From Octopus sinensis (lineage: Eukaryota): a stretch of DNA of 35,880 nt. Of the stretch, positions 5,286 to 30,689 are shown one piece after another. How positions within the stretch are numbered: position 1 is the first letter of the stretch; every line of letters begins with the position of its first letter. The DNA lies in contig NW_021826273.1 of the NCBI RefSeq assembly GCF_006345805.1, forward strand, positions 1-35,880, in the 5' to 3' direction. Made by a program: the position numbers and the translations under genes. The notes below the pieces were generated by a model. The model did not search any database, was not told the DNA's origin, and was given only the letters and a program-made list of their open reading frames with translations.

Positions 5286-5379
5286 TTGAACATATCAACG
5301 GGAAATGGAAAGTTAATTAAAATTTTCACCTCCTGGAGGTGAAAATTTTAATTAATTTTCCATTTCCCTTTGATATGTT

Positions 5380-5382
<3 letters not shown>
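5286..5382. repeat. Near-perfect palindrome, 48-bp arms, 1-nt spacer, 3 mismatches
   Basis: 5286-5333 versus reverse complement of 5335-5382. Confidence 0.95.
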
Positions 5383-5417
<35 letters not shown>

Positions 5418-5620
5418 TAGGTGAATGAATTATCCTATGTTTATCGTCAGCATGGAAAATTCGTTGAACCGAAACCTGGGTAGCGAATTCACGTCAGAAA
5501 CACGGTTGAAGCGACCTGTCCAAATGTAGAAACTCCGGGTTCATGTGCAGAAATTTGTGTTTTGTTTACCATGTAGGCAGTCATCGAAATTTTTGTTCGT
5601 CTTGTTGTCGAGAGAGGCTC

Positions 5621-5713
5621 CCTTTCTTTCCTGATGAGAAGATTGCATAATGCGCCCTTTATTCCTTTGGAATGAAACCATGTTGTCTTCGAAACATATG
5701 TCGAGAGTAAAGG
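5621..5713 (+). ncRNA. Type I hammerhead ribozyme, canonical core, extended helix II
   Basis: Helix I CCTTTCTTTC/GAGAG-T-AAAGG; CTGATGA 5631-37; helix II GAAGATTGCAT/ATGTTGTCTTC with inner hairpin TTTATTCC/GGAATGAA; GAAA 5691-94; palindrome ACATATGT 5694-5701; GUC, cleavage after 5702. Confidence 0.85.
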
Positions 5714-5757
5714 AATTTTGTTAACATCTTCGTTCGACTCCATTCTTTCATTTATTC

Positions 5758-6410
5758 CGCCCGTCGCATCGACCGCACCACCGCCCTGTCTCCTTCCTCT
5801 CACCCACCCACCCAACCGCACCCCCTTCCCCCTCCTTTTCCACCCCTCTACTCTACCCCTTCGTCGCAAGATACTACGTGCCTTCCGTCGCCTCCAGCTT
5901 GATCCCTAACCCACCCCTGTCCTCCTTCAAACGAGCCCGGAATCTACGCGACCTCCTGGTCCACAGCACCCTCTCTCCTTCCCCCTCAGCCTCACACGGA
6001 TCATTCCCTTGCTCTAGATCCCGCTGCAACACTTGCCCCTACATCACCAACACCACTGCTGTCACCGGCTCCAACCGGCGAACTGTACGTATTAGGTACT
6101 CTTTTACGTGCACCTCGTCTGGCCTCATATACTGCATTAAATGCAACCTATGCGGGATGCTGTGTGTAGGACAGACGGGACGCCGGTTGTCCGACCGATT
6201 CACAGAACATTTGAGGGACGTTCGCCTACACTCTTTTTCTCCCGTCGCACGCCACTTCCGCTCGGCCAGCCATTCCCTAGATGACATCTCAGTGTTTGGT
6301 CTCGCCCCCCACAATGGTCGTCCACTTTCTAGGCTCCACTTGGAGCAACGCTACATCTTCACCCTACAAACCACTACCCCACACGGACTTAACACAGCCC
6401 CCTCCTCTAA
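5758..6410 (+). pseudogene. Penelope-like element (Neptune-type) ORF C-terminus: linker plus GIY-YIG endonuclease, 5'-truncated and frameshifted
   Basis: RTPFPLLFHP...LQLDP / PLSSFKRARNLRDLLVHS; linker Cys motif GSFPCSRSRCNTC; LIYCIKCNLCGMLCVGQTGRRLSDRFTEH; VARHF; EQRYIFTLQTTTPHGLN. The YIG position reads CVG. Confidence 0.92.
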
Positions 6411-6429
6411 AGTTTTTTTTCCGGATAAA

Positions 6430-8030
6430 CACCCGAACACACACACACACCTACCTACCTCCCACACGCCTGTTCACACACACACACACACATCCATATA
6501 CACATCTACGTACATACATTCACACATTTAATCACACATACTTATAGACATACATACACACACTAACATACAAACCAACATGCACATACATACACACATA
6601 CATACATACACACACACATACACACTTACACACACACACACAGACATACATACATACATACACACATACATACGCACATACATACACACATACACACACA
6701 CACACACATCGCACATACATACTTCACACACCTATACTTACATACACACACACACATGCACACATACACGTATGCACACACACATACACTCACACTCACA
6801 CGCATACACACACACACATATACACGTACACGCACACATACACACACACACATACATACATACATTACACTTGTACACACACACACCCATACATACATAC
6901 ACCTATACACACACGCCGACACACATACATACACACAAACATAAACACACACACATACACATACACATACGCACACACACATATACTTACACACATGCAC
7001 ACACACACACACACATACATACATACACCCATACACATACACACACATACTTACATACTCCTATACGCACATACATACACACAGACATACACACTCACAC
7101 ATACATACACACACACATACTTACACACACACTCGCCTGCACGCGCACACACATGCATGACACACACCCATACACTCAACTCACATACACACACACCAAC
7201 ATATACACGCACACGCACACATACACGCACACACACACCTACATACCCTCACCCATACATACACACATACATACACACACACACGCATACACACGCATAC
7301 ACACGCACACACATACATACATACATACATACACACACACATACATACACACACCCATACATACACACATACATACACACACACGCACAGACATACACGG
7401 ACACACCCATACATGCATACACACATACACCTATACACACACGCCTACATACCTACATACACACACATGCATACACACACACACATGTACGCACATACAC
7501 ACACATATACGTACATACAGATATACTTACACACATGCACACACACATACATACGCACATGCATGCATGCATGCACACGCGCACACATACACGCATGTAC
7601 GCATACATGCATACACACACACACACGCACGTACAAATACATACATACACACACACATACATACACCCATACACATACATACATCCTATACACACAGACA
7701 TACACACTCACACATACATACACACACACACACTTACTCACACACTCGCATGCACGCGCACACACATGCACATACACACACTTCCACACATACACACGTA
7801 CATACATACACACTCATACACATACACACACACATACACACGGACATACATCTATACACACACATATACACACACATATTTACATACATTCAATCGGACA
7901 CACTGACACCCAGACATACACACAGACACACTCACACATCCACACACACACATACTTACACACACACTCGCAGGCGCGCGCCCATACATGCATGTGCGCG
8001 TTCGCGCACGCATACACACATGCATGCACC
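6430..8030. repeat. About 1.6 kb degenerate (CA)n/(CATA)n microsatellite
   Basis: Direct; source of the 525-aa HT-rich ORF. Confidence 0.96.
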
Positions 8031-8711
8031 ACGCCCGTGGGTTCCGACTAGATCTCTTGTTCGTATCTGGGGCCGGCGTGTTTCTTGGGTTTCTCTTACG
8101 CCTGTCACCGCGGGAGCACTTTTCCATCTTTCCCTCAGTTGCAGTTTGTTTCCTTAATAGCCCCACCTTTTGTACACACACGCACACACATACATACACC
8201 CACTCCCACGCACTCACACACACACATTTGCATATATATATACATTACACTTACACACACTTCAAATTTACTTGCCATACATACAACTACGCACACTGGA
8301 CACACACACACTACAACTCAACACACACACGGCACGTACATACGACGCCACCCATTCCCTCCTTCCTCCTTTTACCACTGACCACTGACTTGCGACTGCT
8401 ATGTCAACTACCTTTCGCCCTACGTACACACACTTACATACAGACGCACGAACTAACATATACATTTTTTTTATCTCGCCTTACACACACATACACACAC
8501 GCACACGTACACACTCACACATACATACACATTATTCTTCCCATTCATCGAGTTGTTACCAACCTTCCTTTCTCCGCTCTTTTGTCTTTAAAAACCAGCC
8601 CCTGTTATCCAAAACTTCCGGCCTTTCAGCATGTTTACTTCGTAAAAACTAGTCGCGTTTTTTTTCCCTCCGTTCGCCCACCTCGGGATCTTTCTTTCTT
8701 CCTTCTCTTAT

Positions 8712-8746
8712 GTTTCCGACGAAGAGCTCCGCTCGAAACGTCATAC
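8712..8746 (+). ncRNA. Minimal hammerhead-like motif in PLE pLTR
   Basis: GTTT-CCGACGA-A-GAGC(TCC)GCTC-GAAA-CGTC-ATAC; U4C core variant, palindromic ACGT, GUC site. Confidence 0.6.
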
Positions 8747-8835
8747 CCTCCTTCTTCCCGTTTTCCTGAGCGCCTAATAATAATACTTTAATTGTTCCAC
8801 GTGTTGTTGTTTTTCTGTTTTCCCGTTTGGATTAA

Positions 8836-9470: not shown

Positions 9471-9473
<3 letters not shown>

Positions 9474-9701
9474 CCTTTCTACTTCCGGTCTTTCAATATG
9501 TGACCTCGTGAGTACCGCTAGCGATTTTTTTCCTCTGTCTTCCCTTCTCGGGATCTTTCCTTCTCCTATGTTTCCGACGAAGAGCTCCGCTCGAAACGTT
9601 AAACCCTCCTTCTTCCCTTCTTTCCTGAGCGTCCAATAATACTTTATTTGTTCCACGTCCTCGCGTTGTTGTGTGTTTTTTTTGTGTTTTCTTGTTTGGA
9701 T

Positions 9702-29497: not shown

Positions 29498-29621
<124 letters not shown>

Positions 29622-29878
29622 CAACAATTGAGGGCAAAATTAATTAATTATTAATCAATTTCACCAAGTGTTCAGTATGCAAAGGGACCATTCAAGGCGA
29701 ATTCAAATTATTACATTATATAAAAGGGCTTAGTAAAATAAATTACTTTGCTGGTGGAAAGGGGAGAACAGAGATTCTTCGCTTGCTTATTTTGAATTTG
29801 TTGGCACTGTTAGTTGGGAGCAGATCTTCGAAAGGGTATGTTCTTATTTTCAGTGTTTCCAAATCCAAACCAAGGAAT

Positions 29879-29935
29879 TTCTGAGCCGATGATAGAAATG
29901 TTGTTTTGACTAATCTTGAAACGTACGTTCTCGAA
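29879..29935 (+). ncRNA. Type I hammerhead-like motif (core CCGAUGA), copy 1
   Basis: TTCTGAG-CCGATGA(29886-92)-weak helix II (AGA/TCT, GTT/GAC)-GAAA(29918-21)-CGTACG-TT-CTCGAA; palindrome ACGTACGT; GUU site. Confidence 0.6.
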
Positions 29936-30421
29936 TAACCTTAGCATTTGATTTTTCGATGTCCTTACCCCCAAACTTTTGTGAGTTGAATTAAGCAAAC
30001 ACTATATATGAGAGAGATTTTCTTTAAGTATTAGAAATAGCCTTAAAAAAGTTTTTTAGCTGCTATTTCTAATGAGTTCAGTATGCGGCAAAGTAATTTA
30101 TTTTACTAAGCCCTTTTATATAATGTAATATTTGAATTCGCCTTGAATGGTCCCTTTGCATACTGAACACTGGGTGAAATTGATTAATAATTAATTAATT
30201 TTGCCCTCAATTGTTGAAATTATAATTAATCTCCCTCTGATTAATGCTTCGGATTTTACCGAAATAAGCATAGTGTTTGATGATTTTAACCCACGCTGGT
30301 GGAAAGGGGAGAACAGAGATTCTTCGCTTGCTTATTTTGAATTTGTTGGCACTGTTAGTTGGGAGAGATCTTCGAAAGGGTTGTTCTTATTTTCAGTGTT
30401 TCCAAATCCAAACCAAGGAAT

Positions 30422-30478
30422 TTCTGAGCCGATGATAGAAATGTTGTTTTGACTAATCTTGAAACGTACGTTCTCGAA
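30422..30478 (+). ncRNA. Type I hammerhead-like motif, copy 2 (identical, 543 nt downstream)
   Basis: CCGATGA 30429-35; GAAA 30461-64; ACGTACGT; GUU site ending at 30472. Confidence 0.6.
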
Positions 30479-30658
30479 TAACCTTAGCATTTGATTTTTC
30501 GATGTCCTTACCCCCAAACTTTTGTGAGTTGAATTAAGCAAACACTATATATGAGACAGATTTTCTTTAAGTATTAGAAATAGCCTTAAAAAAGTTTTTT
30601 AGCTGCTATTTCTAATGAGTTCAGTATGCGGCAAAGTAATTATTTTACTAAGCCCTTT

Positions 30659-30689
<31 letters not shown>

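What the first reader, a model, noticed from the sequence alone, without database searches (positions are those of the whole stretch)
5621..5713. Intact hammerhead with extended helix II just upstream of a Penelope endonuclease remnant
Seen: perfect CUGAUGA/GAAA/GUC core, about 10-bp helix I with a single bulge, 11-bp helix II carrying a further 8-bp hairpin, and palindromic helix III ACAUAUGU. It lies about 45 nt before the truncated GIY-YIG coding remnant but is unrelated in sequence to the HHR at 8712. Inference: either a second PLE family's pLTR fused to the Neptune copy (template switch or nested insertion), or one element with two ribozyme types. This is the best candidate here for an active ribozyme.
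Basis: partly seen in the sequence, partly recalled or inferred. Interest (0 to 1): 0.8.

Follow-up and report, generated by a model that had tools for sequence, protein, structure and literature searches.

The report
Long-armed hammerhead of a Hydra retroelement
This is a hammerhead-ribozyme motif with an unusually long, branched arm that belongs to a very abundant Penelope-type jumping gene in this genome, not to the broken endonuclease gene beside it, which likely jumped in later; the ribozyme is predicted to cut only as a pair, and its activity is untested.

Summary
The hammerhead is there as described. It does not belong to the neighbouring endonuclease remnant. It sits in the 3' end of a Hydra-type Penelope-like family, whose own gene lies upstream in other copies. 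The motif has 8,814 genomic matches across several subfamilies, and Rfam misses it. The long helix II is conserved: 7 of 12 pairs show two-sided changes across 22 subfamily copies. Helix III is a perfect palindrome in 84 of the first 100 listed matches, in three different sequences, pointing to dimer-dependent cleavage. The window holds an ordinary two-arm truncated Hydra insertion (5416-5757) in (TA)n, joined to a separate Neptune-like copy (5758-8829) that carries its own hammerhead at 8716. The junction is unique. 'One element with two ribozymes' is refuted; nested insertion is favoured over a template switch. The proposed 5600-5730 construct is predicted to misfold. No solid genomic sign of in vivo cleavage was found. 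Verdict: a new structural variant of a known kind; the chimera is ordinary.

The parts
5383..5414 (.). (TA)n tract, left flank and likely target of the Hydra insertion
   Evidence: sequence; family ends abut (TA)n in most copies
5416..5568 (-). Inverted arm of the Hydra-type insertion: the 'tail' (+57 to +210 from the scissile bond), which in partial tandems runs on into the ATG of the next ORF; junction with the sense arm at about 5558-5560
   Evidence: (L009, L020)
5559..5757 (+). Sense arm: 5'-truncated 3' UTR/pLTR of the Hydra-type family, ending at the family's proximal 3' end (+54)
   Evidence: 98-99% identical to the best copies; 42 of 53 partner-arm hits end at +57 to +60, i.e. this end plus TA
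5600..5642 (+). Competing hairpin: 5600-5617 pairs with the helix I 5' strand, CUGAUGA and the start of helix II; significant only in this subfamily group
   Evidence: 2 of 18 copies at p<0.05, both from this group
5621..5713 (+). Type I hammerhead motif; predicted cleavage after C5702
5638..5690 (+). Extended domain II (53 nt): 11-12-bp helix II, asymmetric bulge, 8-bp side hairpin 5658-5676
   Evidence: unconstrained consensus finds only this helix; 7 of 12 pairs with two-sided changes
5694..5701 (+). Palindromic helix III ACAUAUGU, predicted dimer interface
5758..6417 (+). 5'-truncated Neptune-like ORF: Zn linker (CX4CxxC) and GIY-YIG; a different family
6418..8829 (+). Long CA-rich 3' UTR of the Neptune-like copy, ending before (TA)n at 8830
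   Evidence: 18 of 20 Neptune copies match 8530-8830 downstream
8716..8742 (+). The Neptune-like family's own minimal hammerhead (CCGACGA core)
   Evidence: 16 of 20 copies

Best explanation
The motif is the 3'-end hammerhead of a high-copy Hydra-type Penelope-like family, with a conserved long, branched helix II; it is predicted to cleave after C5702 mainly as a dimer, and the Neptune-like copy beside it likely inserted later into the (TA)n flank. Shown: family ownership, two-arm anatomy, two fixed 3' ends, covariation in helix II, conserved palindromy of helix III, and a unique junction. Inferred: reverse transcription starts inside the RNA at +55 or +210 downstream of the scissile bond and reads through it, so the template is uncleaved or re-ligated. 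Inferred: two hammerheads pair through the 8-nt palindrome to become active. The role of the distal helix II is untested; a protein-binding or folding element is my guess.
For: Family: copies extend upstream into an RT plus C-terminal GIY-YIG ORF with DKT, CxxC and CxH and no CCHH. The same motif follows ENs of 54-96% identity. Counts: 3,243 matches with ACATATGT and 8,814 with the loop relaxed; controls 0. Structure: 39 cells with two-sided changes against a shuffled mean of 17.6, 0 of 500 shuffles as high; slid controls 35-52% paired against 88%. Dimer: of the first 100 listed matches, 39 are ACATATGT, 44 ACACGTGT, 1 ACGTACGT, 14 ACATGTGT (self-pairs with G-U) and 2 other (counted by eye); palindrome duplex -7.0 kcal/mol. 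Read-through: 87 of 105 arms in this subfamily and 88 of 93 in the ACACGTGT subfamily extend past the scissile bond. Nesting: the junction occurs once in the genome; the Hydra arm stops at the family's own end; 4 of 19 other Neptune 5' junctions follow another PLE end plus TA (L034, L041 Hydra-type; L042, L046 Neptune-type). Private changes: Hydra 5 of 342 once 2 overlap sites are dropped, Neptune 5 of 939.
Against: No activity data. The hammerhead is never the minimum-energy fold: 2.8 kcal/mol above it alone and 4.9 in context. The window's junction has no TA left, unlike most other Neptune junctions. The age difference rests on 5 against 5 changes and is not significant. The 22 aligned copies are related, were picked by me and were found largely with patterns fixing the core and the first 3 pairs of helix II, so the shuffle counts are not probabilities. 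The side hairpin has no clear two-sided change (0 of 5 pairs, 1 of 8). The Hydra CxCX5C linker was not found and no tree was built.
Confidence: 0.72

Rival explanations
1. Template switch: one reverse transcription copied the Neptune RNA to 5758, jumped to Hydra RNA and finished with the inverted arm.
For: No TA and at most 1 nt of microhomology at the junction; the last A of the Hydra end is missing.
Against: The jump would have to land exactly on the Hydra family's own end (+54), and the left side is a normal Hydra tail arm on (TA)n. PLE ends followed by TA and a Neptune 5' end occur in 4 of 19 copies.
Confidence: 0.18
2. One element with two ribozyme types.
For: Both hammerheads are on the + strand, about 3.1 kb apart, flanking a PLE coding piece.
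Against: Junction unique; 0 of 20 Neptune copies have this hammerhead downstream; the 2 of 19 with a Hydra-type one upstream are other subfamilies, at other breakpoints, with TA between; the two ENs are unrelated by BLASTP (best E = 0.8).
Confidence: 0.02
3. The hammerhead is an efficient monomer, with the long helix II and an internal loop of helix I forming the stabilising tertiary contact.
For: Canonical core; a nearly invariant UAA about 6 nt from the core on the 3' strand of helix I; invariant C5646-G5682 pair (22 of 22). Chrysovirus hammerheads with 6-bp helix II cleave well (PMC13725137 passages), though these have a longer helix III.
Against: Monomer helix III is 2-3 bp and costs about 0.6 kcal/mol to close; palindromy is kept across different sequences.
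Confidence: 0.15
4. The fold is kept for binding the element's protein or positioning RT, and cleavage is weak or dispensable.
For: Most arms read through the scissile bond. No excess of 5' ends at the site genome-wide in the ACACGTGT subfamily: 9 true junctions of 16 matches at position 0 against 7 of 7 at the +3 control. In an anole PLE, hammerhead mutants did not affect insertion in vitro (PMC11167929).
Against: The catalytic letters are invariant in the aligned copies (partly by selection). 4 of 105 arms of the window's subfamily start exactly at position 0, 2 of them ambiguous through GAGAG microhomology.
Confidence: 0.25

Closest known systems
Hydra-clade PLEs (Craig et al. 2021, PMC8557442; includes Hydra-1_Obim)
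   Same: C-terminal GIY-YIG without CCHH, CxxC and CxH motifs, DKT, (TA)n targets, type I hammerhead near the 3' end, inverted 5'-truncated arms, tail at one end. The N-terminal ORF motifs run colinear with the printed Hydra-1_Obim protein by eye.
   Different: The 26 published Hydra hammerhead rows have stem II of 3-7 bp and loop II of at most 10 nt; here domain II is 53-59 nt. The tail is about 155 nt against 30-40. RWL instead of RWK, and a long Asn-rich linker instead of CxCX5C.
Metazoan PLE minimal hammerheads (Cervera and de la Pena 2014, PMC4209133)
   Same: Type I topology, short palindromic helix III, larger than usual helix II, G10.1-C11.1 pair, dimer model.
   Different: Their helix II is 6-8 bp with no side hairpin and usually an extra nucleotide after the core; here 11-13 bp, a side hairpin and no extra nucleotide.
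PLE-X1_sMoe and PLE-X1_sTam hammerheads (same supplement)
   Same: PLE hammerheads with a long domain II (9-bp stem plus 35-nt loop in sMoe), flagged as non-canonical, so a long domain II has precedent.
   Different: Spike moss, EN-minus, 28S rRNA-targeted elements; no sequence relation was tested.
Non-LTR retrozymes (PMC7229834; bioRxiv 10.64898/2026.07.22.740005)
   Same: Type I hammerheads in short animal repeats, linked to PLEs.
   Different: No head-to-tail 170-400-nt monomers here; copies are truncated arms of a coding element.

Membership tests
Type I hammerhead ribozyme | Core CUGAnGA / GAAA / NUH with three helices, helix I open | tested here: met
Type I hammerhead ribozyme | Self-cleavage after C17 | not testable with these tools
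   only assembled contigs were available
Type I hammerhead ribozyme | Match to an Rfam hammerhead model | tested here: not met
   0 matches at E up to 10 on 5415-5800; probably due to the 53-nt domain II (inference)
Type I hammerhead ribozyme | Loop I - loop II tertiary contact | tested here: inconclusive
   conserved UAA in helix I and mismatches at helix II positions 4-7; no partner identified
Hydra-clade PLE | RT followed by C-terminal GIY-YIG lacking CCHH, with CxxC and CxH around the conserved E and N | tested here: met
Hydra-clade PLE | DKG changed to DKT | tested here: met
   L020, L169, L339
Hydra-clade PLE | RWK motif near the N terminus | tested here: inconclusive
   RWL at that place in L009 and L020
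Hydra-clade PLE | CxCX5C linker | tested here: not met
   absent from all listed long ORFs; an Asn-rich stretch lies there. Filed as Hydra-type, not as a proven member.
Hydra-clade PLE | Insertion into (TA)n | tested here: met
Hydra-clade PLE | RT groups with Hydra in a tree | not tested
   reference proteins were not available as stored sequences
Neptune-clade PLE (5758-8829) | DKG, CX2-5CxxC linker, CCHH-type EN | tested here: met
   translations; Nematis shares the linker and no tree was built
Non-LTR retrozyme | Non-coding head-to-tail repeats of 170-400 nt, each with a hammerhead | tested here: not met

The most novel reading that the evidence does not exclude
Branched-helix-II hammerheads are an overlooked structural class of PLE ribozymes: at least 8,800 copies in this genome, invisible to Rfam and to short-spacer descriptors, whose conserved distal helix II is a functional module such as the docking site that lets the element's protein switch cleavage on. 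The Naiad 'half-core' cases with 35-50-nt spacing (PMC8557442) may be the same thing.
Probability: 0.3. Interest if true: 0.65.

Novelty: new variant of a known kind. Interest (0 to 1): 0.4.

Why it matters
What PLE hammerheads do is still open. A radiation of subfamilies with natural covariation, three different helix III palindromes and a removable side domain is a ready test set for the dimer and protein-assistance models. It also shows that hammerhead counts from Rfam or short-spacer descriptors can miss thousands of copies in one genome. The chimera itself teaches little beyond PLEs piling up at shared (TA)n tracts.

Tried and rejected
Second cleavage site at GUC 5607-5609 (type III fold, or a 93-nt circle): GUC in 3 of 19 copies and GUU in 6; the fold lies 9.1-9.5 kcal/mol above the minimum; no 5702-to-5610 joint among the 15 joints shown of 21. 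Rejected.

Upstream anti-ribozyme hairpin as a conserved switch: 2 of 18 copies at p<0.05; kept only as a trait of this subfamily group.

Genomic footprint of cleavage: 4 of 105 arms start at position 0 and 1 at -1 in this subfamily, 3 of 93 at -1/0 in the ACACGTGT subfamily. The genome-wide test gave 9 true junctions (7 of 16 matches dropped as small indels or substitutions) against 7 at +3. Not supported. Arm ends look denser at -25 to -3 in both samples, but palindromes there mimic microhomology; not followed up.

Expression: no RNA holder listed; 4 of 24 runs laid, contigs only, none seen bridging 5757/5758 among the pieces shown; no verdict.

Pfam: no family for the Neptune remnant and nothing above cut-off for two Hydra-type ORFs. 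Metagenome pattern scan: 2 hits, neither with the architecture. Whole-window Rfam and repeat scans were swamped by microsatellites. Earlier findings: none returned. Lunse et al. on dimeric PLE hammerheads was not held and was seen only as cited in PMC6765202.

Full report
Observation. Helix II has one U-U and two G-U among its 11 positions. A simple hammerhead descriptor found this one site in the window and none in 200 Markov resamples. Rfam found nothing on 5415-5800, and the free fold is not the hammerhead.

Whose ribozyme. A search with 5415-5760 gave 2,257 candidates, 40 of them scored. In most copies 5559-5757 is followed by the reverse complement of 5416-5568 or by (TA)n, and preceded by a 3' UTR and an ORF. 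That ORF is an RT followed by a GIY-YIG with DKT, CxxC and CxH and no CCHH. This matches the description of the Hydra clade (PMC8557442, section 11 and passages). RWK reads RWL, the CxCX5C linker is missing and no tree was built, so I call it Hydra-type. The host is probably an octopus; this is recalled from genome size and comes from no call.

Anatomy of insertions. Copies end either about 55 or about 210 nt downstream of the predicted scissile bond. In 90 loci chosen by the tail sequence, 42 of 53 opposite-strand partner hits ended at the proximal site. The tail runs on into the ATG of the next ORF in L009 and L020. The window therefore holds a normal two-arm insertion: (TA)n, inverted tail arm, sense arm up to the proximal end. 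87 of 105 arms and 88 of 93 in a sister subfamily cross the scissile bond, so the copied RNA was uncleaved or re-ligated. This fits internal RT initiation and the dispensable, protein-assisted hammerhead of an anole PLE (PMC11167929, parts 1-2 of 4 read), and also the circle model (PMC4209133, parts 1-2 of 4 read). My data do not separate the two.

The neighbour. 5758-6417 belongs to another family (1,261 candidates, 40 scored) that continues upstream into its own RT and downstream through a CA-rich UTR to the 8716-type hammerhead in 16 of 20 copies. The two ENs are unrelated by BLASTP. The junction 19-mer occurs once in the genome. 4 of 19 other Neptune-like 5' junctions follow another PLE end plus TA; a review also states that PLEs tend to insert next to existing copies (PMC6765202 passages). 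Against nesting: the window's junction keeps no TA. Private changes (5 of 342 against 5 of 939) agree with Neptune being later but are too few to decide.

The long arm. Patterns gave 3,243 matches with ACATATGT, 83 shorter ones and 8,814 with the loop relaxed; reversed-pattern controls gave 0. Both arms of an insertion are counted, so insertions are fewer. The motif follows ENs down to about 54% identity. On 22 copies picked to span subfamilies, unconstrained consensus folding returned only helix II. 7 of its 12 pairs change on both sides, and C5646-G5682 is invariant. The side hairpin is kept in most copies but shows little covariation. The copies are related and the patterns fixed the core, so the shuffle controls overstate significance. 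The 26 published Hydra hammerhead rows have stems II of 3-7 bp and loops of at most 10 nt; two spike-moss PLE-X motifs have long domains II (supplement table). The same paper's relaxed search used spacers of 7-17 nt and noted Naiad half-cores 35-50 nt apart. I found no description of this variant in five searches or in the parts of the supplement seen (1 of 59 parts read whole). Subscription papers, Repbase and Dfam were not searchable. The retrozyme preprint was read in part 1 of 5, without its supplements; PMC7229834 and PMC13725137 were seen as passages.

Likely activity. 84 of the first 100 listed matches have a perfect helix III palindrome in three sequences, and 14 more self-pair with G-U. 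Closing helix III in a monomer costs about 0.6 kcal/mol, while the intermolecular duplex gives -7.0. Dimer dependence is the best reading. A pile-up of 5' ends at the scissile bond was hinted in this subfamily (4 of 105) but not borne out genome-wide in the sister subfamily (9 against 7). The sequencing data were contigs only and give no verdict.

Verdict. A real, conserved, high-copy structural variant of the PLE hammerhead in a Hydra-type family, next to an unrelated Neptune-like copy most likely through nested insertion at (TA)n. New variant of a known kind; interest 0.4.

Noticed in passing
window 29619-30666: Another PLE-like insertion between (TA)n tracts: an inverted arm plus two tandem copies 543 nt apart, each with a hammerhead-like core (CCGAUGA at 29886 and 30429) and palindromic helix III ACGUACGU.
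   Followed up: no
window 9471-9700: Second, 76% identical copy of the Neptune-type 3' end with a CCGACGA hammerhead core at 9574.
   Followed up: partly
window 5288-5380: Near-perfect palindrome with arms of about 45 nt (-59 kcal/mol) just left of the insertion's (TA)n; no copy among the fetched loci.
   Followed up: no
L171:1201-1277 (-): A more distant long-domain-II hammerhead (59 nt) with ACGUACGU helix III and no Hydra-type EN within 1.2 kb; owner unknown.
   Followed up: no
L026, L081, L151, L282: The RT-EN linker of these Hydra-type ORFs is a long Asn/Ser-rich stretch that differs strongly between subfamilies, in place of the Cys linker.
   Followed up: no
loci: 5' ends of arms look denser 3-25 nt upstream of the scissile bond (helix III and the 3' strand of helix II) in two subfamilies; RT pausing or palindrome-driven inversion are both possible.
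   Followed up: partly
window 8716 and L340-L359: The Neptune-like family's hammerhead has CCGACGA (U4 to C) in 16 of 20 copies, a family-wide departure from the canonical core.
   Followed up: no
L034, L041: Two of 19 Neptune-like 5' junctions sit beside Hydra-type ends, which may be more than shared use of the many TA tracts (71 in this window) would give; not tested properly.
   Followed up: partly
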